A stretch of 64,000 bases of DNA from Octopus vulgaris. Its lineage: Eukaryota. Shown piece after piece: positions 1 to 54,248 of this stretch. The stretch covers positions 69,440,001-69,504,000 of the forward strand of contig OX597827.1 in assembly GCA_951406725.2 (NCBI GenBank), written 5' to 3'. Positions within the stretch are counted from its first letter, which is position 1. Every line of letters begins with the position of its first letter. The position numbers and the translations under genes are program-made. The notes beneath the pieces were generated by a model that was not told the DNA's origin, searched no databases, and saw only the letters and a list, made by a program, of their open reading frames with translations.

Positions 1-130
1 TATATTGTAGATTTGTATAACTCCCAAAGGGAGGCAGATAAAATCTGCCTTTTATAATAAGAGATATCTCTTATTATAAAAGGCAGATTTTATCTGCCTC
101 CCTTTGGGAGTTATACAAATCTACAATATA
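1..130. repeat. Perfect 130-bp palindrome (two Helitron-like 5' ends head-to-head)
   Basis: 1-65 is the exact reverse complement of 66-130; each arm starts A|TCTCTTATTATAAA. Confidence 0.85.
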
Positions 131-603
131 GGATTTCTTCAATTACAATTTACCTTGCATTTTTAAGAGTACAATGCATCGCGTCATGCCAGGTCCAGTT
201 TTTAAAATTTAAACTCCAATTAAGCAAAATTTACAGAAAACTCACATTGTGGTGTGTGTGTCAAATGCTTTTCTTAGTCTGGTTTACAGCACACGCAAAC
301 GCACACACACAGTGGGCAACGAATAAAATGAAAGTAATTGACTTACTGTAGTGAGTGATTCTTTCACTCTGCCTCCCACTTCCTCTTTCAACACATAGAC
401 ACGCAAATATATAAATAAAATTGTAAGCTAACGTGCGTGTGTGTGAGTGGGTGTGTGTGGGTGTGCGCGTGTGTGTGTGTGTGTGTGTGAGGGTGTGTGT
501 GTGTGTGTGTGAGGGTGAGTGTGTGTGTGTGTGTGCGTGTGGGTGGGTGTGTGACAGTAAAGTTTTTTACGACGAATATAACACCTATATCCAAGTAGCA
601 GAA

Positions 604-976
604 AGATAAGACAGTAAGGTGTGATTTGAGGGAGATTTGGCTGCTATTTCTACCATGTCTAGCTGCCATGTAGGGGTCTCCCTCATAGGCTCATACATAC
701 ATATATACATAGATAAGACAGTAAGGTGTGATTTGGGGGAAATTTGGCTGCTATTTCTACCAGGTCTAGCTGCCATGTAGGGGTCTCCCTCATAGGCTCA
801 TACATACATATATACATAGATAAGACAGTAAGGTGTGATTTGGGGGAAATTTGGCTGCTATTTCTACCAGGTCTAGCTACCATGTAGAGGTCCCCCTCAT
901 TGGCTCATATATATATACATACATAAGACAGTAAGGTGTGATTTGAGGGAGATTTGGCTGCTGTTTCTACCAGGTC
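604..976 (-). repeat. Tandem array of about 3.5 copies of a 107-bp unit with an HDV-like ribozyme fold on the minus strand
   Basis: Core units at 627-692, 734-799, 841-906 and a partial unit at 944-976. The repeat is certain; the ribozyme reading is an inference. Confidence 0.8.
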
Positions 977-1231
977 TGTTAGGCCTTCTCATGTAAACTC
1001 AAGCTTTCTCGTGCCTTGAACTCGTTTTATTTTTGTAAGCATTGTACTTATTCTATCTGTTTCCTTTGTCAAACCACTAGGTGACAGGGATGTAAACAAA
1101 CCAACATTCGTTGTCAAGCAGTGGTGGAGGACAATCACAAGCACAGACACGCACACACACACACATACATGCATACACATATACACACATACATACATAC
1201 ATACATATATATATATGTGTGTATATATATA

Positions 1232-1553
1232 TTGCAGCGTGGAAGGTGTTTGTAAGCCATTTAAGAAACACACAAAAACCGTTACATTCACTTCAACATT
1301 TAAATTTAATTTGCCAAAATATTTTCGTCGCTTTCAGACCGCGACCTGTTCACTGACAAAAATATCGTGCTAACAGGTCGCGGTCTCAAAGCGATGAAAA
1401 TATTTTGACAAATTAAATTTAAATGTTGAAGTGAATCTAACGGTTTTTGTGTGTTTCTTAAATGGCTTATAAACACCTTCAACGCTGCAACTGTTTTCGT
1501 TCCAGCACACGATCTCAGATCAAGTCACTTGCTATACAAGTACATCTCTGTAA
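1232..1553. mobile_element. Foldback (about 119-bp arms), Penelope-like remnant; second copy at 25988-26299
   Basis: 1232-1350 is inverted at 1371-1490; a hammerhead-like fold lies at the centre. Confidence 0.7.
1310..1360 (-). ncRNA. Minimal type-I hammerhead ribozyme-like motif with G3-C8 core variant
   Basis: UUUGUCA-GUGAACA-G-GUCGC(GGUCUGAAA)GCGAC-GAAA-AUAU-U-U^-UGGCAAA. Confidence 0.55.
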
Positions 1554-1652
1554 CTATATATATATTTATATATATATATATATGTATATTGTTAAAAACA
1601 GTAAGATAACAAAAGAAAGAAAGAGACCTCAATATCATGTAAATAGAGGAAA

Positions 1653-2047
1653 TCTTTATATATAAAAGTGAGGTTGTGTGTCTGTCTCCTATGATTTAGA
1701 TTCCTAACTACTCCCACATTTTGCGGTGCAGTTTAACCAAAACCGGGTATCTTATAGTCGTGATTCATATCGAGACCGTCTGGGTATTAGCGCGCGTCTA
1801 CGATGAGTCTACGATTTAAAAAAAAATTTACCATCAATTTTTCCCATTTTTAATCCATTTTTGACATATATAAGGGAAGTAACTCTCTAAAATTTATTAT
1901 TAAATCTCAGAACGTAAAAAGCTACAGTAACACCCCTCCCCCTTTGTGGTTAGCCATATTGAGATGGCTATTATACTTTACATCTCTAAAAATGCTTATA
2001 TAATTATTTCCCTTACAAACCCGAGCAACGCCGGGCGATACTGCTAG
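1653..2047 (+). mobile_element. Non-autonomous Helitron
   Basis: A|TC 5' end, subterminal hairpin cccgagcaacgccggg, CTAG|T 3' end, no TSD. Confidence 0.85.
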
Positions 2048-2094
2048 TATATATATATATAATATATATAATATTATGATGTATATATATATAT

Positions 2095-3365
2095 TATTTT
2101 TATTTTATTTTATTTTATCTAGTTTCAGCTCACAAGCTGTGGCCACGCTGGGGCACCGCCATTTGGTGTTGCTACATAATTTTACTTCACGAATGCTTTT
2201 TAGGAATTGACATTTGGTGCATGAGAGAGTTTGATGCAGCTGCCCTCATCTGCACCTCCTACCGCGAAGTTGGTTCATCTGGGACACTTGATGGGAAGAG
2301 GTCCAGCTTTGTTTTAAAGATACTTACATCTACCCCATGCAGGTCTCTCAGGTCCTTCAGGAGGATATTAAAGAGCTGTGGACCTCTGAAGCCTAGGCTA
2401 TTGCAGTATCTTGTCCTACATCTTGATGGCAAATTTGGAGTCCTTGGCACTATGCAGTGGTGCCTAGTTCTAGTATTTGTGTAACTCTCGATGCCAAAGT
2501 TTGGGACAAGTCCTTCCAGATATATATTAAGGCATATCTTTCTCGCCTACACTCTAAGGAATAGTCTTAATCTCTTGAGTCTTTCCCAGTAGCTTATATG
2601 CTGCACAGAGGATATCTTCTTTGTGTAGCTTCGTTGGATTGCCTCAAGTTCTGAGACTAATTTGACACTTGTTGGTGACCATAGCTGAGAGCAATAGTCA
2701 AAGTGGCCTAGGACAAGTGTCCTCCAGACGACCATCATGGTTTCCTGGTCTCTTGTTCTAAAAGTTCTAAGAATCCATCCGGTCAACCACCTGCATTCCG
2801 TTGCCAATTTAGCAACATGCACATGAAAGGTTGCAGCATTACTCATGTAAATGCCCAGGTCTCGCACTGACTGTGCCTCTGGGATTGCAATCTCTGCAGG
2901 TCCAGTTTATTTAATTGATATTGCATTTAGTTTTTGCATTCTGATAGCATAAGACTTGAAACTTTTCAGTATTAAACTGAATGCTATTCTTTTCAGCTCA
3001 CTTGTATATTTCGTCCAGCTCACATTGCAGGTGCATAGTGTCTTCAGGGTTCTGTATTACCTGTGAAACTTTTGTATCATTTGCGTAACTTGTGAACATG
3101 GCTCTCTGTGTGGGTGAAAGCATGTCTGAGAGGGCCATTATGAACAGTAGTGGTCCCAAAACAGTGCCTTGCAGAACACCGCTCACTATTTGCATGTCAT
3201 TGGAGATGGCCCCATGCCGAGATCACACAGTCTGTGACATATCATTCCATGATTTACTTTATCAAAGGCCTTTGCAAAGTCGAGATATATCACTTCCACA
3301 TTTGAGTGGTTGAGCAGCTGTTTCAACACCCAATCATAGTGTTGTAAGAGCTGAATCAGGCAGCA
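2095..3365 (-). mobile_element. Degenerate CR1-type LINE 3' fragment (RT C-terminus, 3' UTR, (ATAAA)n tail)
   Basis: Broken ORFs SGVLQGTVLGPLLF, YANDTK (YADD), RDLGI...DYCSQLWSP...LEAIQR...SYWERL, GPQLFN. Confidence 0.9.
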
Positions 3366-6477: not shown

Positions 6478-7080
6478 GGCGGCGAGATGGCAGAATCGTT
6501 AGCACGCCAGGCGAAATGCTCGGCGGTATTTCGTCTGCCGTTACATTCTGAGTTCAAATTCCGCCGAGGTCGACTTTACCTTTCATCCTTTCTGAGTCAA
6601 TAAATTAAGTACCAGTTACGCATTGGTGTCGATATAATCGACTTAATCCGTTTGTCTTTCCTTGTTTGTCCCTTCTGTGTTTAGCCCCTTGTGGGTAGTA
6701 AAGAAATAGGTATTTTGACTGTCGCTACGTTCTGAGTTCAAATTCCGCCGAGGTCGACTTTGCCTTTCATCCTTTTGGAGTCAATAAATTAAGTACCAGT
6801 TACGCACTGGGGTTGATATAATCGACTTAATCCGTTTGTCTTTCCTTGTTTGTCCCTTCTGTGTTTAGCCCCTTGTGGGTAGTAAAGAAATAGGTATTTT
6901 GCCTGTCGCTACGTTCCGAGTTCAAATTCCGCCAAGGTCAACTTTGCCTTTCATCCTTTCGGGCTCGATTAAATAAGTACCAGTTATGCACTGGGGTCGA
7001 TATAATCGACTTAATCCGTTTGTCTGTCCTTGTTTGTTCCCTCTGTGTATAGCCCCTTGTGGGTAGTAAAGAAATAAGTA
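6478..7080 (+). mobile_element. SINE family B, three tandem units
   Basis: Repeated GAGTTCAAATTCCGCCGAGGTCGACTTTGCCTTTCATCCTTTCGGGGTCGAT...AGCCCCTTGTGGGTAGTAAAGAAAT. Confidence 0.85.
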
Positions 7081-7442
7081 TTAATTTCTAGGTGTTGTTT
7101 AATTGTCTTATTTTTGCTAAGATCAATGTAAAGTTAGATAAATTGACTGAAATTGAGATTTAGTTTTTTCCTGTAAATTTCTTAAGAAAAAAGTGATATA
7201 AAGTCAAAATACGACAAGGCTGGCCCTTCAAAACACAGATACACTGAACAGTTTGCCAGTTGTGTGAACTGGAGTAGTGTGAAATAAAGTGTCTTGCTCA
7301 AGGACACAACACATCATTGGGTATCGAACTTACTAAGCCACGAGCCTTCGTATACACACTTGACACCCTCATACACATATGATGGGTTTCTTTCAGTTTC
7401 CATCTAAATTCGCTCAAAGGCTTTGGTTGAGCTTGGTTTACA

Positions 7443-19184: not shown

Positions 19185-20430
19185 TGATAGAATCGGCAGC
19201 GCAACAGACAAAATGCTTAGCAGTATTTCTTCAGGCTCTATACGTCCTGTGTTCAAACCCCACCAAGGTCAACTTTGCCTTTCATCCTTTTGGGGTTAAT
19301 AAAATAAGTACCATTCGAGCACTGGGTTGATATAATTGACTAACTACACCGACCCCGTTCCCCAAATTCCAGGCCTTGTGCCAAAATTTGAAGCCATTAT
19401 TATTACCATTGTTTAAGGCAGCAAGCTTGGCAGAACTGTTACCCCTCTGGGACAAAGTTTAATGGCATTTAAATCTTGGGTTTAAATTCTTCCAAGGTCA
19501 TCTTTCCTTTCAAGGTCAGTAAAGTAAGTTCAGCAGTGGGGTCAATGTATTTGGCTAGTCCCCTATTACAAAATTACGGGCCTTGTGCCTATATTAGAAA
19601 ACTTATTATTATTAAAGCGGTGAGCAGGCAGAATCTTTACCACGCTGGACAAAATGCTTAGCAGTATTTCACGTATCGCTACATTCCGAGTTCAAATTCT
19701 GCTGAGGTCGACTTTGCCTTTCATCCTTTCACGGTTGATAAATTAAGTACCAGTCATGTACTGGGGTTGATGTGATCGGATAGCCCCCCCCCCCACCTCC
19801 TCAAATTCCAGGCCTTGTGCCTATATTAGAAAGGATTATTATTAAGGTGGCAAGCTGGTAAAATCGTTAGAATGCCGGGCGAAATGCTTAATGGTATTTC
19901 GTCTGTCACTGCATTCTGAGTTCAAATCCCACCGAGGTTGACTTTGCCTTTCATCCTTTCGGGATCGATAAAATAAGTAGCAGTTGAACACTGGGGTCAA
20001 TGTAATTGCCTATCCCTACTGCCCTTGTGGCAAAATTTGTAAACATTATTCTTATTATTCTTAAGGCAGTGGGCTAGAAGAATCATTAGCACACCGCGCG
20101 AAATGCTTAGCAGTATGGTGCTTGCCGCTATGTTCTGAGTTCAAATTCTGCTGAGGTTAACTTAACCTTTCATCCTTTCGGGGTCGATAAATTAAGTACC
20201 AGTTACATCCTGGGGGTTAATGTAAGACTATCCCTTCCCCTAAATTTCAGGCCCAGTGCCCTTTATAGAAAGGATTATTATTCAAATTCCGCCAAGTTTG
20301 ACTTTGCCTTTCATCCTTCCGGGGTCAATAAATTAAATACCAGTTACAGACTGGGGGTCGATGTAATCGACTAGTCTCCTCCTTCCACAAAATTTCAGGC
20401 CCTGTGCATTTAGTAGAAAGGATTATTATT
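19185..20430 (+). mobile_element. Head-to-tail cluster of about 6 SINE-B-related copies
   Basis: Repeated GCCTTTCATCCTTT..GGGTCGATAAA..AAGTACC with a GGCCTTGTGCC tail and (TTA)n spacers; a similar minus-strand cluster is at 57870-59020. Confidence 0.8.
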
Positions 20431-22659
20431 ATTATTGATGATATCATATCAAGTTTCATTCATCATCATCATCGTTTAACATCCGTTTTCCATGCTAGCA
20501 TGGGTTGGACGGTTCAACTGGGGTCTGGGAAGCCAGGAGGCTGCACCAGGCTCCAGTCTGATCTGGCAGTGTTTCTACAGCTGGATGCCCTTCCTAATGC
20601 CAACCACTCCGTGAGTGTAGTGGGTGCTTTTTACGTGCCAGGGGAGGCTGGCAATGGCCACGATCAGTTGGTGGTTTTTATGTGCCACCGGTGCGGAAGC
20701 CAGTCAAGGTGGTGCTGGCATCGACCACGTATGGATGGTGCTTTTTACGTGCCACCGGCACAGGTGCCATGTAAAATAATTCATCAGCATTTTCACCACT
20801 TGGTAAATGTGTGTATGTATGTATATATTTATTTATGTGTGTGTGTGTAGAGAGAGAGAGCTGAACTACAGAATCAGATGCTGTTGGAAATGGCCCCACA
20901 GCAAACTTATATCTCATTGTATTGGAATAGTTCTTGCTTGCAAGGCCCTTATATCAGATCCTGCAACCCCACTAACAAAGTGTGAAATGTTTGGTGTGCT
21001 ACTTTTGTAGGTTTCTTATGAGAGGAAGGTTTGGCCAGGAGTTGAGGTCCCTTCTCGTATGGTCTGCTCACATCAAGCTCTAAGGTGTGTTTTCTGTTTC
21101 CTTGCAAAATTTTTCAAGGTGTTTGATGAAGGTAGACATGGTAAGGCACTGATTATCTTCTACCTGTAACTTTTATAACAAAAGATAACTAAAAAATATA
21201 TTAATCAAGGTTTTTTTATGTGTGTGTGTGTGTTTGTTCCCCACTGCTGCTTGACAGCTAGTGTTGGTGTATTTACATCCCTTTAACTTAGCAGTTTGGC
21301 AAGAGAGACTGATGGGATAAGTACTAGGATTGATTAATTTGACTAAGATTCTTGAAGGCGGTGCCCCAGCCTGACTACTGAATCAAGTAAAAGATATGTA
21401 TGGCAGTGAATCATGGCTACATAAATTTATTCTTATGCAAAGCCATATTCTGTTTGGATGGGGAAGGCACATGGGCCTTGGGCCTAGTGGTAAGAATGTT
21501 CAGTTGATGATCACAAGGTCAGGGGATCAATTCCTGGAGTGGGCGGTACATTGTTTTTAAGTAAGTCCCTTCATTTCACGTTGCTCCAATTTACTCACCT
21601 GTTTGTAAGTATCAACCAAGTACTGATGCAGTTTCTCTCTCCCTCCCCAGCTGTTACATCATTGATGTACCCCTGGGTTGAGAGCAGAGCGAATGTCTAA
21701 GAGAGTACTCAATGTCTATTTGTGACTAGACGAGCTCCTTGAACAATTAGCAATGCTAACCAAGTTACAAACTTATCTATAACCACAATCATTCAAGTCT
21801 TAACCATTCCATAATTTATATATATATCTTATCCCTGGCTTATATTGTCTTGTGTAACCCTTTTTTTTTCCTGTATTTTTCTTTTCTTAAATTTACATGT
21901 GATTTGGGGGAATATTTATTTGGCTGCTATTTCTTGTTTGTTGAATAAGCAACCACGTAGGGGGCTCCCTCATTGGTTCAATTAATCCAGGAATAAATAA
22001 GACAAGTTGGCTTGCGGTGAAGGAGAGCCGGGGAGGCAACAGTAAATACGACAACAACAAATTCCTATTTTACCGTCCTTAAAGGGTTTGTGTTTTAGAG
22101 TTGAAATTGTCAGGTATGTAGTACTGTTCTTCTTTGCTTTTTTTGTGTCTGTTCTGATGCCTTCATTAGCAATTATTGGCTCATATCAATTAGGTGGTGA
22201 ACTGACAGAATCATTAGTGTGCCAGGCAAAATGCTTAGCAGCATTTTGGCTGTCTTTTTGTTCCGAGTTCAAATTCCGCCAAGGTCAGCTTTGCCCTTCA
22301 TCCCTTTCAGGGGTCGATAAAATAAGTACAAGTTGAGCACTGGAGTCGATGTAATCGACTTAATCCGTTCCCCACTAAACATGCGGGCCTTGTGCCAAAA
22401 TTTGAAACCAACTGGGAGAGTTTTATTTATTTCCCTTAAATTTTTTTAAAATCCCGTTTTCTTGTTTGGATCTCCATCATTTTATTTATTTTTTTCCTCT
22501 GGCATTTGATCAGAGAAGGGAGGGGGAACTCCCCCCCCCGGTCCCCATATCATCTTCTTTACAGAATCTCCAGGACTTGTAGGAAGAAAACGGAAGATGC
22601 CATGACTCGTGGTTTGCCTGCTGCAAAAGGGGGCAGCACACCAAGGCTTGTTTGTTATA

Positions 22660-25324: not shown

Positions 25325-27409
25325 GTATGTATGTATTATCTATTTAAATGATCAGAGATATCCCTTAAGTGGGCTTCAGCCATGTCTAACATATAGACAA
25401 TACCCGATGTGTGAAGTAATGTTACTCGACAGGGTGCAGAGATCAGGGTGTTTCTCCAGGTCAAGCTGCTACCCCTCTGCATTGACAGGTCACAGCTCCA
25501 GTTGACACGGGAAAGAATCAAAAGATGGGTTCTTCTCAATGACTCAACGAAAGCTTCACTGAAGAAGACCTTTAAGATCAACCCCCACCCCCCAAAAACT
25601 TGGAAAATGCAACCATAAGATCATCCTACCTGGGGAAGCTGCACCAACATAAGTTCTATCTCCTATGAACAAAACAGTATTGCAGGGGCACAAAGAAAAG
25701 GTGGACTGTACAAGCCCAGAGCTAACTCCTTGCCTTCAATCCAAGCAGACCACCAGAGCCCTTCCAAGCGCACACCAGACGGATCAGCCATACCTGGACA
25801 TACTGCGCCTCATCTTCTCCCAGGTGATATCCTTGGTCATCGTCGACAATGATGAACAAACTAATAAAATAAGAAGTCAAGTTAAGATCAAGGAACGGAA
25901 ACAAACGTTTTGCTCTGCGGGAGATATTGTATTTTCTGGCATTTAAGTTGAATTTTTCAGGCCAAAATGATATACTTTTATTCTTTATTACAGAGATGTA
26001 CTTGCATAGCAAGTGACCTGATCTGAGATCGTGTGCTGGAACGAAAACAATTGCAGCGTGGAAGGTGTTTATAAGCCATTTAAAAACACACAAAAACCGT
26101 TAGATTCACTTCAACATTTAAATTTAATTTGCCAAAATATCTTCGTCGCTTTGAGACCGCGACCTGATCACCGACAAAACTCTGCGCTGCATCAGTGATC
26201 ATTTATTTGGCAAATTAAATTTAAATGTTGAAGTGAATCTAACGGTTTTTGTGTGTTTCTTAAATGGCCTATAAACACCTTCCACGCTGCAATTGTTTTA
26301 TTCTTTAGTTTTAGTCAAAGAAATTGACCCTAGGACTTATTCTTGGTAAACCTATTACTTATCCTTCGGACGCATACACAAATACATATACAACGGGCTT
26401 CTTTCAGTTTCCGTCTACCAAATCCACTCACAAGGCTTTGGTTAGCCTCAGGCTATAGAAAAAAAACACTTGCCCAAGGTGCCATGCAGTGGGTCTGAAT
26501 CAACCCAGAACCATGTGGTTCGTAAGCAAGCTTCTTATTTCTTTACTACCCACAAGGGGTTTAACATAGAGGGGACAAACAAGGACAAACAAAGGGATTA
26601 GGTCGATTACATCAACCCCAGTGTGTAACTGGTACTTAATTTATCGACCCCAAAAGGATGAAAGGCATAGTCGACCTCGGTGTAATTCGAACTCAGAACG
26701 TAACAGCAGATGAAATACCACTAAGCATTTCGCCCAGCATGCTAATGTTTCTTATTTCTTTATTGCCCCCAAGGGTCTACATACAGAGGAGACAAACAAG
26801 GACAGGCAAATGGATTAAGTCGATTACATCAACCCCAGTGCGTAACTGGTACTTAATTTATCGACCCCGAAAGGATGAAAGGCAAAGTCAACCTCGGTGG
26901 AATTTGAACTCAGAACGTAGTGGCAGACGAAATCCCACTAAACATTTCGCCTGGCGTGCTAACGTTTCTGCCACACCTGTACCTACGTGATGACTGAGCC
27001 TCAGGAATGACTTTGAAAGACCATAAATCCTATGAGAAATTTAGAAATTTAGTAGTTTGCTGGAAAATATGACACAAGGGCTGCACCATTTGGAAAAGAG
27101 AGAAAGATATGTGAAGGCAGCCCTCTAGCACCATTACAAAAATAAATAGACAATAGACTATCGTAAAATTGATGTCTATACAAAGCAGTTTTATTTTAGT
27201 AGCTGCCTTATACAATACTTTGATATCCTTGCATTCATCCCTTCTTTCTCTCACTCTTTCTCACATATGTATATACATAGTTATACACACACAAAAAAAA
27301 AATATTATTTGTCCTTCTCCAAATACAACCTCTGAGTATATGTGAATGATAATTCCCACCCACCCACCCCGCCCCTATACATTTACACAGATGAATTTAG
27401 CCAGTGTTC

Positions 27410-36665: not shown

Positions 36666-39101
36666 CATAAACACATATTTGTATGTATGTACGTTTGTGT
36701 CTCTTGCCTTGACACTGTATGACTGTTGTAAATGAATGTTACTCATTTGCAGTATTTCTTGAAAACCTGTCTGGTCATGAGAAATATTGCTTTGGAAACA
36801 TGTGACAGGAAGGGTATCTAAGCATAAAAAAATCTGCCACAATAAACTGCATCTGACCCATGCAACCATGGAAAAATGGACAGCAAAACAATGAATGATG
36901 ATGATTTATTGAAAAAAAGTGCAGCAATTTAACAAATGGAATGGAGAACTGGCAGAATCGTTAGCACGCCGGGCAAAATGCTTAGCGGTTTTTCGTCAGC
37001 CGTTATGTTCTGAGTTCAAATTCCGCCAAGGTCGACTTTGCCTTTCATCTTTTCGGGGTCGATGAAATAAGTACCAGTTATTTACTGGGGTGAACAATAC
37101 ATTCGAGCGAGGTCATTGCCAGTGCTGCTGGACTGACTCCTGTGCAGGTGGCATGTAAAAAACACCATTTTCGGGTGTGGCCGTTGCCGGTACTGCCAGA
37201 CTGACCCTCGTGCCGGTGGCACTTTAAAAGCACCCACTACACTCTCGGAGTGGTTGGTGTTAGGAAGGGCATCCAGCTGTAGAAACTCTGCTAGATCAGA
37301 TTGGAGCCTGGTGCAGCCATCTGGTTCGCCAGCCCTCAATGAAAATCGTCCAACCCATGCTAGCATGGAAAGCGGACGTTAAACGATGATGATGATGATG
37401 ATGATCTAAGGTATTTTATTATTGCTGTCCGTTTTTTTATTTTATTTTAAATGAATTAGTTTCAAGAAAGGGTAGCAATGTCCAGAGTTCTCCTAGACTG
37501 GTGACATTGAAAGGCATTGATATGACAGAATTGAGTGTTTGCAAGTTGATGGTTGAAGATATAAAATAGAGCAATCCCGATTGCAAAACCTTTGATAAAA
37601 GACAGTCAAGATGTGATCATTGCCTTCTTTCTCAGGCATAGTACACCTGAGACAGTATTTATTCAATGTCACTTCCCCATTTTATAAAGACGTTATGAGA
37701 TTTAACTATTATTTCTAGCAGTTTGAGCAAGTGAGTAGTCATGCAGCTCCTCTACAGCTTGAAACTTGTTCTGCTCTGGCCTTTTCTCTTATGCTTTCTA
37801 AGGAATAAGGACAAGAGAAAGTACTTAGGGTGAGGTTAGAAGAAGTGAATGACTTAACGTAAACAATTTGAATTGTCAGACAACACGTCATGCTTGGAGA
37901 GACCTATTGAGACAAGTAAAATAAAAAATCAAATCACAATCAAAACTGGAAATTGTAGTTGTGACCTATACAAGTGCAGCCTGACTGGCTCTTGTGCTGG
38001 TGGCATGCAATAAGCACCATTCATGCGTGGGTCATTGCCAGTGCCATCTGACTGGCTTCCCGAGCCGGTGGCACATAAAAAGCACCATTTGAATGTGGTC
38101 AATGCCAGCCCCCACTGGCTACTGTGCCCCAGTAGCACATAAAAAGCACCATCCGAACATGGCTGATGCCAGTGCCGCCTGACTGGCTCCCATGCCGGTG
38201 GCATGTAAAAAGCACCCACTACACTCTTGGAGTGGTTGGTGTTAGGAAGGGTATCCAGCTGTAGAAACCTTGCCAGATCAGATCGGAGCCTGGTGTGGCC
38301 TCCTGGTTTTCCAGTCCCCAATCAAACTTATTTCTTTATTACCCACAAGGGGCTAAACATTGAGGGGACAAACAAGGACAGACAAACGGACTAAGTCGAT
38401 TACATCGACCCCAGTGCGTAACTGGTACTTAATTTATCGACCCTGAAAGGATGAAAGGCAAAGTCGACCTCGGCGGAATTTGAACTCAGAACGTAACGGC
38501 AGACAAAATACCACTGAGCATCTCGCCCGGCGTGCTAACGTTTCTGCCAGCTCACCGCCTTTCAAACCATCCAACCCATGCCAGCATGGAAAACGGACGT
38601 TAAATGATGATGAAGATGAATTGCTCTTACTTATGTTAATATCATGGTAGAAAGTAAATGCATTCAGCCCTGTCATAAGGCCTCTCTTGAACAGGGTTTT
38701 TCATGCATTTGAACCAAGTCAGTCCCTCTTCAGAGTCTATCCTTCCTCTATTTTATCATCATCATCATCATCATCATCGACTAACGTCTGCTTTCCATGC
38801 TAGCATGGGTTGGACGATTTGACTGAGGACTGGCAAACCCTTTAAAGATATTCTATTACTGTATTTTATAGTATACGAGTTTTCCAAATGAAAATTTACA
38901 GCCCTCCAAAAAAGGTAGGTCAACTTGGACAAGAAAACTTTAAAGGACCAAAAATTCCATGTGAAATGCAACAGGATTTGGGAAAAATAGCAACAATGTA
39001 TGAAGGGACACACTCTATACTACATTAACCCGTTTGCTGAAGAATATGGTCAATCAATATTATTAACCTGATAGACCTCTTGAGAGCTCTGAGCTTGAAA
39101 T

Positions 39102-39620
39102 TCATCATCATCATCATCGTTTAACATCTGCTTTCCGTGCAGGCATGGATTGGACGGTTTGACTGAGGGCTGGTGAGTCAGAAGGCTGCACCAGGCTCCA
39201 ATCTGATCAGGCAAAGTTTCTACAGCTGGATGCCCTTCCCAACACCAACCACTCAGAGTGTAGTGGGTGCTTTTTACGTGCCACTGGCATGAGGGCCATT
39301 CAGCCGGCACTGGCATCAACCACACTTGAATGGTCCTTTTTACATGCTGCCGCCACAGGAGCCATGCAGGCGGCACTGACAACGACCATACTTGAATGGT
39401 GCTTTTTACATGCCACTGGCATGGGACCAGTCAGCCGGCACTGGCATTGACCATGCTCAAATGGTGCTTTCTACGTGCCATTGACACAAGACCAGTCAGC
39501 CGACACTGGCAACGACCACACTTGAACGGTGCTTTTTACATGCCACCATCATGGAAGCCAGTCAGCCGGCACTGGCAACGACCACACTCGAATGGTGCTT
39601 TTTACGTGCCACCAGCATGA
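39102..39620 (-). mobile_element. SINE family C with about 6 internal tandem 60-bp units
   Basis: Repeated GGTGCTTTTTACGTGCCAC...GGCACTGGCAACGACCAC..GAAT; (CAT)n on the + strand. Confidence 0.85.
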
Positions 39621-40733: not shown

Positions 40734-41460
40734 TTAAAGGCAAAAAAAAAAAAAGAAGTTTCTCATCATGGCCCAGTTAGGAAAAAAATTTGCTGCAACA
40801 ACCTGTTTGGGACATCTTCATTTGCTGATAAGATCAAGTCACACAAAAGGTTTCAGTCACTTGTTTAAAAACCTGATCATGTTTTTCTTTTGTAAGGACA
40901 ATCAGTAGTAGTTGTCTATGCAATTAAGCTTTCAGTCTCTAAAGCAGTGATCCGCAACCTTTTTTCCACTTGCAGTACGCTTATTATTCTTTTCAAAATT
41001 TGGCAGCACACCTGAAAACGTGTCTGGCCATACTCTTTTACTTGCTTCAGTCATTTGACTGCGGCCATGCTGGAGCACTGCCTTCAGTCAAGCAAATCGA
41101 CACCAGGACTTATTCTTTGTAAGCCAAGTACTTATTCTATCACTCTCTTTTGCTGAACTGCTAAATTAGTAACGGGGACTTAAACACACCAGCATCAGTT
41201 GTCAAGCGATGATGGTGGGACAAACACAGATACACAAACATATACACATACACACACACACACATATATTTGACTGCGGCCATGCTGGAGCATCGCCTTC
41301 AGTCAAACAAATCGACCCCAGGACTTATTCTTTGTAAGCCTAGTACTTATTCTATTGGACTCTTTTGCCGAACTGCTAAATTACGGGGATGTAAACACAC
41401 CAGCATCAGTTGTCAAGCGATGATGGTGGGACAAACACAGATACACAAACATATACACAT

Positions 41461-41491
<31 letters not shown>

Positions 41492-44093: not shown

Positions 44094-46835
44094 AGATAAT
44101 TTGGTTGTATGAAACATTCCAAGAACTGTTATTATTCCAAAATACTGTATGTGGTTCAGTTTTAAACCTTTTGGTACCAACCCATCTGAAACGGTCCCTG
44201 GTTCAATGATAAAAACTTCTTGTTTTACAGTAATCTATATTAAAAGCTGCAATCCAAATTTGATTTTAATTTTTATTCAAAACATCTAGTTTAATAAATA
44301 TTCTTTTATTCTTTTACTTGTTTCAGTCATCTGACTGCAGCCATGCCTTGAGTAGAAAAGATTATTATTATTATTATTATTATTTTCCTTCTTTCTTCAA
44401 ATTTTCTTCCGTTTCTCGCCGAGTGTTTTCCATACACCTAGGGCAGAGAAGCTCATTGTATGTATTCCCAGATTACACACGCAAATTCACAGATAAAATA
44501 TGTGCTTAAAAATTAATAAATAAACAAATTCATGGATGGATGTTGTTTTCACAGCGATAATGCTCTTCTCAGTACATAAGCCGTTCCAGTTAATACGATT
44601 TTTTAAAATTATTATTATTATCATTATTATTATTATTATTAAGGCAGTGAGCAGACAAAATTGTTAGCATACTGGGCAAAATGCAAAGTGACATTTAGTC
44701 TGTCTTCGTGTTCTGAGTTCAAATTCCACCAAGGTCGACTTTCTGGGTTGATAAATTAAGAACCAGTGAAACACTGGGGTCAATGTTATTGACTAGTCAG
44801 CTCCCCCAAAATTTCAGGTCTTGTGCCTATAGTAGAAAGGATTATTATCATTATTGTTAAATCAGTGAGTTGGCAGAATCACTAGCATGTCAGGCAAAAT
44901 GCTTAACAGCATTTCTTCCAGCATTGTGTACTAGGTTCAAATCCCACCAAGGCTGTCTTTGCCTTTCGTCCTTTCTGGGTCAATAAAATAAGTACAAAGT
45001 TATGAATGATTAATTCAAAACAACACGAATAAATAAGAACTACATTTGACAGAGAAAATGTTTAGTAAATCAACTAACCCCCAACGCATAATATTGCTGA
45101 CCTTGTCCCAGAATTTGCTCACAACCAGGGCTGGATTTAGACCTGGTGGGGCCCTGTACTAATAGGTTTTGGGAGTTTCTATGATTTTGCAAATACAAAT
45201 TTTATATTAAGATAATAAAGGGGGTCCCTAAAAAGTTTGAAGAAGCCTCTAAACTTAAAAGGACTTGGTAGAATCAGAGGGACTCAATCAAATTTAATAT
45301 ATTTTTAAACCTGAAAGAGCCCAATAAATCAAAAAAGGGCTCAATAATTTTAAAGGAACTCTATGCAATTAAAAAATTTAAACGTGGCTGTGTAGTAAGT
45401 AGCTTGCTAACCAACCACATGGTTCCGGGTTCAGTCCCATTGCGTGGCATCTTGGACAAGTGTCTTCTGCTATAGCCCTGGACCGACCAATGCCTTGTGA
45501 GTGGATTTGGTAGACGGAAACTGAAAGAGGCCTGTCGTATATATGTATATATATATATATGTGTGTGTGTTTGTGTGTCTGTGTTTGTTACCCTAGCATT
45601 GCTTGACAACCGATGCTGGTGTGTTTACGTCCCCGTCACTTAGCGGTTCGGCAAAAGAGACCAATAGAATAAGTACTGGGCTTACAAAGAATAAGTCCCA
45701 GGGTCGATTTGCTCAACTAAAGGCGGTGCTCCAGCATGGCCACAGTCAAATGACTGAAACAATTAAAAGAGTAAAAGAGTAAGTAAAATACATGTTACAA
45801 ATGATTTATTTGATTTGCTATAGATATATTTTTTAAAATTCTTAATTACAAACTTTAGATCTCTCTCTCTTTCCCCCTCTCTCTGGGGTACATGGTTCAT
45901 AGGTAAATTCAGCCCTGCTCACTACGTTGAATATGTAAACACTAAATCACTTTTGATGCACTGTCACCTGTGAGTAATTCCTGTCAGTCACAGGTGTTCT
46001 TAAATAATAATGTATTCCCATAAAAAAAAATTTTTTTTTTAAATTTTATTACAAATGAATTGGCACTCCATTGGCTATGACAGCAGGGGTTCCAGTTGAT
46101 CAGATCAAGATAATAAACTGCCCAGGAAACCAACACACAAGTGGCTGAGCACCCTACAGACACGAATACCTTTAACAAGGTGGCGAGCCGACAGAAACGT
46201 TAGCCCGCTGAGTGAAATGCTTAGCAGCATTTCGTCTGTGAGTACGTTCCGAGTTCAAATTCCACTGAGGTCAACTTTGCCTTTCATCCTTTCGGGGGTC
46301 GATAGATTAAGTACCAGTTACGCACTGGGGTCAATGTAATCGACTCATTCCCTTTGTCTGTCCTTGTTTGTCCCCTCTGTGTTTAGTCCCTTGTGGGCAA
46401 TAAAGAAATAAGAAACGTTAACACGCCGGGCGAAATGCTTAGCAGCATTTCGTCTGCCGCTACGTTCTGAGTTCAAATTCCGCCAAGGTCGACTTTGCCT
46501 TTCATCCTTTCAGGGTCAATTAAATAAGTACCAGTTATGCACTGGGGTCGATGTAATCGACTTATCCCCTTTGTCTGTCCTTGTTTGTCCCCTCTATGTT
46601 TAGCCCCTTGTGGGCAATAAAGAAATAAGACATGAATACCTTAATCATAGTTCTCAGCGTGACAGAGAACGTGACAAGGCCGGTCCTTTGAAATACAGAA
46701 GCAATGTGAAATAAAGTGTTTTGCTCAAGGATACAATGTACCACTGGAAATCGAACTCACTACCTTGTGATCATGTGCCAAACACCTTACCCACTAATCC
46801 ACATGCCTTCACTATATGTAAAACAATACACTTAC

Positions 46836-52623: not shown

Positions 52624-54248
52624 TGTGTGTGATAGTATGTATACATTTATTTATATATAAACGAATTATATGTGTATATGTATACACGTTTGTATGTGTC
52701 TATACGTGTGTGCGCGCGGGGGAGAAGTATTCTTTTTAGTGAGAAGCCATGCAGGTGTATATAAATGTTATGCAATAATACCCAACCAATAACACGATTA
52801 ACCGAATTCTGTACCTAACTAAATTCATTAACTTCTGGATCCGGGACGATCTGATAACCAACAATGAGGACAATACGAATCAGTGGTGCGTGTTTTTATG
52901 TATAGCTGTGTGTCGTCAACTTGCACCTGTAATTGAAAACATCACACACACACGTACACGTACACGTCTAATTTGAACCCCACCCGCTACCAATCTTACG
53001 TGATTGTTGATTTGTTTTACCCCAGGTCATCCGTAATCGAGTAGTCTAATACCAAAGGCATGCTAGCCGTGTCCACCCTGTCATTTCTGGATGAACAGGG
53101 AACCCCCAAACTACGTTATCCAACGAGTCTTATTCATTTATTATTATTTTTAAGACAGAGTATTATTTGAGGGAGATTTGGTCGCTATTATTTTTAAAAC
53201 TGGTCGAGTGATAACGTAGAGAAGCCCAGATCGTCAGCTTGATAACACGATAGTTGTGTAAATAAATGTATGTGTTTAGACTATATATCAATACATATGT
53301 ACACGGAATAAAACATCTGTTTGATTGTGACATACATATTATTGAGAAATTAAAGCGACGAAAGTACAAAAGAGAAAGAAAGCTTTGCACCCCCAAAATG
53401 TGACACTTGTTAACATAGTGAATGAGGGTCACATCTTCGATGATAGCATGTCATGTTAAAAGGTTACAAGCACACACACACACACACATATATATACGCT
53501 TATATATATATATATATATATAGTCTTCCTAGTTATAGACAAAACCTAAAATGTCCATGGTCTCTAGTACTCGACCGTTACTTTATTCTATCGACCCCGG
53601 ATAATATTTAAAAGGCAAAGTCGCTTTCGGCGGCATTTGAACCCGGAATCTATCTATCTATATATATATTTCACACCGAAATAGCGGCGTCCTTTGGCGC
53701 AAAGAGCTGTTATGTGGTTAGAAATAGCAGCCAAATCTTTCCTTTTCTGGGGAAAGGAGCCGTTTCCGCATGATGTTAATGTTATATTAGTTGAAAGTAC
53801 GCGAAATAACCCGGAAAAGAAAAACAAAAACTCGCGAAACAAACTCCGTAGGTGAGAAACTCCGAGGCCCGAACTACCCTTCCTCTTTTCTTTTCCGGGA
53901 AAAAAAGTGGCTCGCGTCAGGTTTGGAGGTCAGATACGTTGAATGCACCCGAAAAGAAAAAAACCGTGGGAAAAAATTATTTCACACCGAAGTACGAACG
54001 GGTCCTTTATGAAATACTTATCGAGAGAAAGAGAGAACCGTCTTAAGGTGTGGGCACAAGCGGCTGGTGACTTCTCAATAAATAAATCTTATAGGATTCA
54101 GTGCATTGATTTATACGGGGCCCTAAAATGCTTCTAAGATGGTTCTCTGTGTATATATATACACGGGGACACACAATCTTATTCTATTTATGGGAGGCTT
54201 TTATCCCCCACATAAGTATTTACTTTCTCATTGGTGATGCTTTTCCCT

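What the first reader, a model, noticed from the sequence alone, without database searches (positions are those of the whole stretch)
604..976. 107-bp tandem array whose minus strand folds like an HDV/CPEB3-type ribozyme
Seen: unit 3 (841-906, minus) reads GAGCCAA-UGAGGGGG-ACC-UCUACAU-GGU-AGCUA-GA-C-CUGGUA(GAAA)UAGCAG-CCAA-AUUUCCCCCA. The order matches P1, P2, P3, a 7-nt L3 (cf. CPEB3 UUCACGU), P3', P1', J1/4, P4, J4/2 C-N-A-A and P2'. Unit 1 has a perfect 8-bp P2 (UGAGGGAG/CUCCCUCA). Caveats: P1 is only 4-5 bp, P1.1 is poor and J4/2 is slightly long, so these copies are probably decayed. Inference: if active, a transcript through the array would be cut into unit-length RNAs, like hammerhead retrozyme tandem repeats but with an HDV-type motif.
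Basis: partly seen in the sequence, partly recalled or inferred. Interest (0 to 1): 0.72.

Follow-up and report, generated by a model that had tools for sequence, protein, structure and literature searches.

The report
Helitron-borne satellite of decayed ribozyme heads
This 107-base repeat is the worn front end of an old jumping element that likely once began with a self-cutting RNA; it grew into a satellite and now rides inside a young rolling-circle DNA transposon, and its copies are predicted to be unable to cut.

Summary
The array is real (107 bp x 3.5, 94%) and the HDV-type strand order is not chance (0 of 20,000 shuffles). But it is not a retrozyme. Each unit is the first ~85 bases of an old, dispersed 215-bp retroposon plus a TATG spacer. 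That parent's consensus starts exactly at the first base of a near-complete HDV-like fold. The tandem units have lost key parts: the L3 guanine needed for catalysis is A in all but 24 of 2,627 units, P1 has 3 Watson-Crick pairs, and window units 1-2 also break P3. The array is cargo of a ~2-kb non-autonomous Helitron (67-2047, A|TC...CTAG|T), with 635 exact junction matches genome-wide; first and last unit types are fixed and only the middle unit varies in number, which points to DNA-level expansion. Longer arrays (48+ units) lie on three small chromosomes. Cleavage and circular RNA could not be tested. This scan had already noted the parent element on other DNA of this genome (e1-8825069). 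Each step (ribozyme-headed retroposon, SINE-derived satellite, Helitron-carried repeats) has precedent.

The parts
604..977 (-). 107-bp tandem array: one partial unit (from P4 on) and three full units
841..907 (-). Unit 3 HDV-like relic: P1 5' 907-902, P2 899-892/848-841 (7 of 8), P3 3 bp, L3 888-882 (A at 883 in place of G), P1' 878-873, P4 870-855 (5 of 6), candidate catalytic C 854
734..800 (-). Unit 2 relic: P3 broken (2 of 3), L3 first base C, L3 G->A; the unit type whose number varies among Helitron copies
627..693 (-). Unit 1 relic: perfect 8-bp P2, P3 2 of 3, P4 4 of 6
67..2047 (+). Non-autonomous Helitron carrying the array: starts TC after A, ends CTAG before T, no target duplication; this copy lacks ~135 bp near 1021 that other copies have
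2020..2047 (+). Helitron 3' hairpin and CTAG end
1653..2047 (+). Inner short Helitron with its own TC-type 5' end; supplies the 3' end of the composite; median 99% identical among 29 copies
1242..1490 (.). Long inverted repeat (MITE-like) also carried as cargo
   Evidence: (self-match in reverse)
1..130 (.). Perfect 65-bp-arm palindrome: junction with a second, inverted copy of the same Helitron (6 units) left of the window
53012..53227 (-). Dispersed near-full copy of the 215-bp parent element (others at 21768-21977 and 37572-37738; three fragments)

Best explanation
The array is a short satellite made from the 5' head of an old 215-bp retroposon whose head likely was a working HDV-like ribozyme; the tandem units are predicted to be catalytically dead and are spread as cargo of a young non-autonomous Helitron. 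Steps: (1) shown: a dispersed 215-bp element with an (AAC)n tail, median 29% diverged from consensus, begins at the first base of an HDV-type fold; inferred: the ribozyme cut the element's RNA out of host transcripts for a LINE partner to copy. (2) shown: the 107-bp unit is that head plus a TATG spacer, in arrays of up to 48+ units on C28-C30; inferred: one decayed copy was duplicated in tandem at the DNA level. (3) shown: a piece of array sits in a ~2-kb Helitron with hundreds of near-identical copies; inferred: it was captured once and the middle unit slips in number.
For: Parent consensus from 230 copies fits a relaxed HDV descriptor from nt 1 (C-G pair at the cut site, P1 5 of 6 with top mismatch, P2 6, P3 3, 7-nt L3 with U..CG, one P1.1 pair, P4 6, CCAA); 0 of 20,000 shuffles do. 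Conservation stops at nt 1 in 37 anchored copies. R2 ribozymes have 6-7-bp P1, a quarter with top mismatches (PMC3774820); C-G at the cut site occurs in active fungal and L1Tc ribozymes. Tandem units: L3 G in 1 of 182 satellite and 0 of 88 Helitron units scored, 24 of 2,627 genome-wide; loss of this G impairs cleavage (PMC13635239; sow bug R2). Last unit of array L091 runs on into the parent body. Helitron ends: A before TC in 25 of 26, T after CTAG in 28 of 28 of 31 copies examined; 635 exact junction matches; fixed first/last unit types, 0-3 middle units.
Against: No cleavage assay. The parent consensus fails the strict descriptor (7-bp P1, short J4/2) and 98 of 100 listed copies have the 6-nt P1' spacing, so even the parent may have been a weak or dead version. 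No covariation in 115 unselected parent copies (28 double changes vs 31.7 shuffled); a slight excess in all 230 (68 vs 56.7; 20 of 500 shuffles) is confounded by pattern selection. No partner LINE found among 30 RT loci or upstream of 30 tails. The satellite has a better P2/P3 than the parent (8 bp and 3 WC pairs), which decay alone does not predict. Descriptors were tuned after seeing the sequence.
Confidence: 0.8

Rival explanations
1. HDV-type retrozyme: units still cut (weakly, or through a P1 borrowed from the preceding unit), give 107-nt linear or circular RNAs, and the long arrays arose by reverse transcription of these; the Helitron later captured one.
For: Catalytic C region, P2, P3 and the single P1.1 pair are kept in most satellite units (P3 3 of 3 in 169 of 182; P1.1 in 181 of 182). 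An alternative 5-pair P1 (two G.U) can form with the previous unit's P4 strand. Weak monomer ribozymes rescued in dimers exist among hammerhead retrozymes (PMC7229834). Some arrays begin with partial units.
Against: L3 G lost in 99% of units; P1 mismatch next to the cut site; high identity among units explains kept features without selection; array starts do not fall on either predicted cut site (read by eye); positional unit types are fixed across Helitron copies.
Confidence: 0.06
2. The parent head was already a non-functional or promoter-only relic of a LINE 5' end (like Pr77, which doubles as an internal promoter), and the element spread without self-cleavage.
For: Family-wide 6-nt P1' with a C.C mismatch and 2-3 extra J4/2 bases; no covariation; the CGTG downstream promoter element of Pr77 (+25 to +28; PMC4748587) has a counterpart at nt 23-26. 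A C-C mismatch in P1 has been blamed for inactivity elsewhere.
Against: The element starts exactly at the predicted cut base and all five helices are present.
Confidence: 0.3
3. The resemblance to an HDV fold is chance in an ordinary repeat.
For: No Rfam hit; modest folding z-scores; post hoc descriptors.
Against: 0 of 20,000 shuffles; coincidence with the element's 5' end, the known place of such ribozymes in RTE, Ingi and R2 elements (PMC5786205).
Confidence: 0.05

Closest known systems
Pr77/L1TcRz heads of L1Tc, NARTc, RIME, SIDER (PMC3185411, PMC4035085, PMC4748587; passages, section 5 of PMC4035085)
   Same: HDV-like fold at nt 1 of a short non-coding retroposon; C at nt 1; one-pair P1.1; CGTG in L3/P3; many decayed copies
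   Different: L1TcRz P1 is 7 bp and activity is shown; here 6 positions, untested, partner LINE not found; animal host
R2 ribozymes and R2 SIDEs (PMC3774820 passages; PMC3414825 listing only)
   Same: 6-7-bp P1 with top mismatch tolerated; dead copies lacking the L3 G
   Different: Not rDNA-targeted; P1 5' strand is inside the element
Cg_HINE Helentrons of Pacific oyster (PMC7492417, abstract)
   Same: Non-autonomous rolling-circle elements disperse short arrays related to classical satellites
   Different: Here ends are of canonical Helitron type and the repeat is traced to a ribozyme head
SINE-derived satellites (reptiles PMC10702118, abstract; limpet PcH-Sat PMC11121367, listing only)
   Same: Tandem repeat made from part of a dispersed retroposon
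   Different: Source part is an HDV-like head, not a tRNA-type SINE
Animal non-LTR retrozymes (PMC7229834, passages)
   Same: Short tandem units, one ribozyme-like motif each
   Different: Those have active hammerheads, 150-450-bp units and circular RNAs; here the motif is HDV-type, broken family-wide, and spread is by Helitron

Membership tests
HDV-like ribozyme (tandem unit) | P1-P2-P3-P1.1-P4 in nested double-pseudoknot order | tested here: met
   unit 3 fits loose descriptor, 0 of 20,000 shuffles; units 1-2 do not
HDV-like ribozyme (tandem unit) | P1 of 6-7 bp, mismatches only at the top | tested here: not met
   3 WC + 1 G.U, mismatch at position 2; 158 of 182 and 86 of 88 units have 3 WC pairs
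HDV-like ribozyme (tandem unit) | U20.G25 pair in L3 | tested here: not met
   A in all three window units; G in 24 of 2,627
HDV-like ribozyme (tandem unit) | Catalytic C in J4/2 and at least one P1.1 pair | tested here: met
   J4/2 is 1-2 bases longer than usual
HDV-like ribozyme (tandem unit) | Self-cleavage | not testable with these tools
   needs assay
HDV-like ribozyme (parent head consensus) | All helices, L3 U/C/G, catalytic C, start at cut site | tested here: met
   relaxed descriptor from nt 1; strict 7-bp/short J4/2 descriptor not met
HDV-like ribozyme (parent head consensus) | Covariation in helices | tested here: inconclusive
   none in 115 unselected copies, as expected for neutral decay from one master
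Non-LTR retrozyme | Tandem units each with an intact ribozyme | tested here: not met
Non-LTR retrozyme | Unit-length linear and circular RNAs | not testable with these tools
   only assembled contigs were on offer
Non-LTR retrozyme | Dispersal through RNA | tested here: not met
   29 of 30 top loci share the Helitron 3' segment; origin of long arrays on C28-C30 not settled
Non-autonomous Helitron | 5' TC, 3' hairpin + CTAG, insertion in A|T without duplication | tested here: met
   25 of 26 and 28 of 28 ends found in 31 copies
Bipartite non-autonomous LINE (SIDE) | 5' and 3' ends shared with an autonomous LINE | tested here: inconclusive
   no partner in 30 RT loci of 56,077 candidates, none upstream of 30 tails
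Bipartite non-autonomous LINE (SIDE) | Target site duplications | tested here: inconclusive
   one 12-bp case by eye (L105); no clear pattern in 60 old copies
Retroposon-derived satellite | Tandem unit homologous to part of a dispersed element | tested here: met

The most novel reading that the evidence does not exclude
The satellite units, or the G-retaining minority, still cleave (possibly with a P1 borrowed from the neighbouring unit), making this an HDV-type counterpart of retrozymes that yields 107-nt RNAs and puts cut sites at over 600 Helitron insertions.
Probability: 0.06. Interest if true: 0.75.

Novelty: new member of a known kind. Interest (0 to 1): 0.27.

Why it matters
As read, it is a tidy three-step history (ribozyme-headed retroposon to satellite to Helitron cargo) and a warning that tandem ribozyme-like repeats need not be retrozymes. 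The parent head is a testable natural HDV variant (6-position P1, C at the cut site, long J4/2) that Rfam misses. I found no paper on this chain in the held library (searches: HDV-like ribozyme + octopus, 0 papers; ribozyme + octopus; HDV-like + tandem; retrozyme + HDV; listings only), but each step has precedent and subscription papers and Repbase were not searchable.

Tried and rejected
Rfam scans: no HDV family. Strict descriptor over 741,588 bases of loci and window: 0 hits. First shuffle test was uninformative: the consensus had an alignment error and the loose setting matched no unit; redone with a better alignment and P2 minimum 5. Subfamily with 7-nt P1': 1 of 100 listed matches has one extra base, 1 has two. 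Partner LINE: top RT loci were one CR1/L2-like family (24), one RTE-like family (4) and two singletons by my reading; none shares head or tail; only 30 loci were looked at. Expression: no RNA holder listed; contigs of four runs cover the unit but cannot show ends, strand or circles, and the 'goes back' joint is what the tandem DNA gives. Alternative P1 partners up to 350 nt upstream: one all-paired 6-mer with four G.U pairs in flanking DNA and the previous unit's P4 strand; neither restores the L3 G. Hammerhead, twister, pistol readings: rejected by eye from recalled consensus motifs, not tested. Ruminski 2011 and Webb and Luptak 2011 were not held; their descriptors may differ from mine. PMC13708176 and PMC4758252 (passages) added little. 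No supplements were read.

Full report
Observation. The array is at 604-977, period 107, 3.5 copies, 94% matches. Scored in a fixed register, unit 3 has P2 7 of 8, P3 3 of 3, a 7-nt L3, one P1.1 pair, P4 5 of 6 and a CCAA after P4, but P1 has only 3 Watson-Crick pairs plus a G.U, with a mismatch next to the cut site. Units 1 and 2 also lose a P3 pair. All three have A at L3 position 6, where HDV-type ribozymes have G25. Rfam shows no HDV family. The order of helices is still beyond chance: 0 of 20,000 shuffles of unit 3 fit the loose descriptor that it fits (tuned post hoc).

Context: a Helitron. The window is C14:69.44 Mb of a 2.8-Gb genome, probably an octopus (earlier notes and recalled repeats; not tested). 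A 131-base query had 828 candidates; all 40 scored were 100% identical. In 30 fetched loci the shared sequence extends over window 64-2050 or so. The ends are TC after A (25 of 26 found) and hairpin plus CTAG before T (28 of 28 found), among 31 copies, with unrelated flanks. The terminal 395 bp are 99% identical at the median. A junction motif matches 635 times, a unit motif 2,627 times. The element also carries an inverted repeat, a SINE-like fragment and an inner short Helitron, the pattern of capture by read-through (inference from established Helitron biology). Inside it the first and last unit types are fixed in most copies and the middle type occurs 0-3 times. Copying from a monomer RNA circle would not give fixed positional variants; slippage or unequal exchange would (inference).

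Longer arrays. Pattern hits cluster on C28-C30 at 107-bp spacing. Nine stretches fetched there hold arrays of 2 to at least 48 units; none matched the Helitron's 3' end, one held a separate 5' fragment. Several sit in locally duplicated blocks. The last unit of L091 continues into the body of a dispersed element. Of 182 in-register units, 1 keeps the L3 G and none exceeds 4 WC pairs in P1; genome-wide 24 of 2,627 motif matches keep the G.

The parent. A hairpin motif found 233 dispersed matches. Profiles built from these and further loci give a 215-bp element with an A-rich middle and an (AAC)n tail, median 29% from consensus in 165 copies, with 6 hits (about 1.3% of bases) in the rest of this window. 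Conservation begins at a CpG two bases before the profile start in 37 anchored copies. With CpG sites restored, the consensus fits an HDV fold from that first C: C-G at the cut site, P1 5 of 6 with a top mismatch, P2 6-7, P3 3, L3 with U, C and G in place, one P1.1 pair, a 6-bp P4 with GAAA loop, and CCAA plus 2-3 extra bases; 0 of 20,000 shuffles fit. It fails a strict 7-bp descriptor, and 98 of 100 listed copies share the short spacing. R2 ribozymes have 6-7-bp P1 stems, a quarter with top mismatches (PMC3774820, passages). L1TcRz starts with C1 and has a one-pair P1.1 (PMC3185411, passages); fungal variants with C-G at the cut site cleave (PMC5640933, passages). RTE, Ingi and R2 are the LINE clades that have both 5' ribozymes and bipartite short derivatives (PMC5786205, passages). 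Unselected copies show no covariation. No partner LINE was found.

Are the units dead? Predicted so. G25A gave no observable cleavage in 60 s in a nematode HDV ribozyme (PMC13635239, passages); a sow bug R2 lacking the L3 G did not cleave, and single P1 mismatches are linked to inactivity; CPEB3 P1 is especially mutation-sensitive (PMC9901934, passages). The units carry both defects. Against this: P2 and P3 are better in the satellite than in the parent, and a weak alternative P1 with the previous unit exists. RNA data could not address ends or circles.

Comparison. It works like a SINE-derived satellite (PMC10702118, abstract) dispersed by a rolling-circle element (PMC7492417, abstract). It descends from something like the Pr77-headed short elements. 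It resembles retrozymes (PMC7229834, passages) only in layout and fails their defining intact-ribozyme test.

Verdict. Real feature, correct ancestry, ordinary mechanism. New member of known kinds; interest 0.27. Residual chance of an active HDV-type retrozyme about 0.06.

Noticed in passing
window 1-130; L100; L018; L020: Head-to-head inverted pairs of the same Helitron joined at their 5' ends (perfect 65-bp-arm palindrome in the window); also head-to-tail chains, e.g. six matches 2.18 kb apart at C2:206.16 Mb.
   Followed up: partly
L091, L093, L129, L130; many matches on C28-C29: The 3' part of the same 215-bp parent also occurs in short tandem duplications of about 125-150 bp, so both ends of the element seed tandem repeats.
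   Followed up: no
parent element, last ~50 bases (consensus): By eye the 3' end can form two interlocking stems (an H-type pseudoknot) just before the (AAC)n tail; possible LINE recognition signal; not tested.
   Followed up: no
L084/L085, L086, L211-L213: Older, more diverged satellite variants with 91-111-bp periods, some keeping the L3 G; candidates for the ancestral array.
   Followed up: partly
L138-L166 (24 of 30 RT loci): A young LINE family with 949-aa open frames and (ATT)n tails, many copies near-identical.
   Followed up: no
window 6525-7082, 19571-19997, 26532-26969, 41053-41475, 46193-46630, 39266-39613: Several other 2-5-copy tandem repeats of 66-230 bp that look like duplicated SINE pieces, so tandem duplication of repeat fragments is common here.
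   Followed up: no
window 2547-2867 (-): 106-aa frame resembling the C-terminal part of a LINE reverse transcriptase (resemblance recalled).
   Followed up: no
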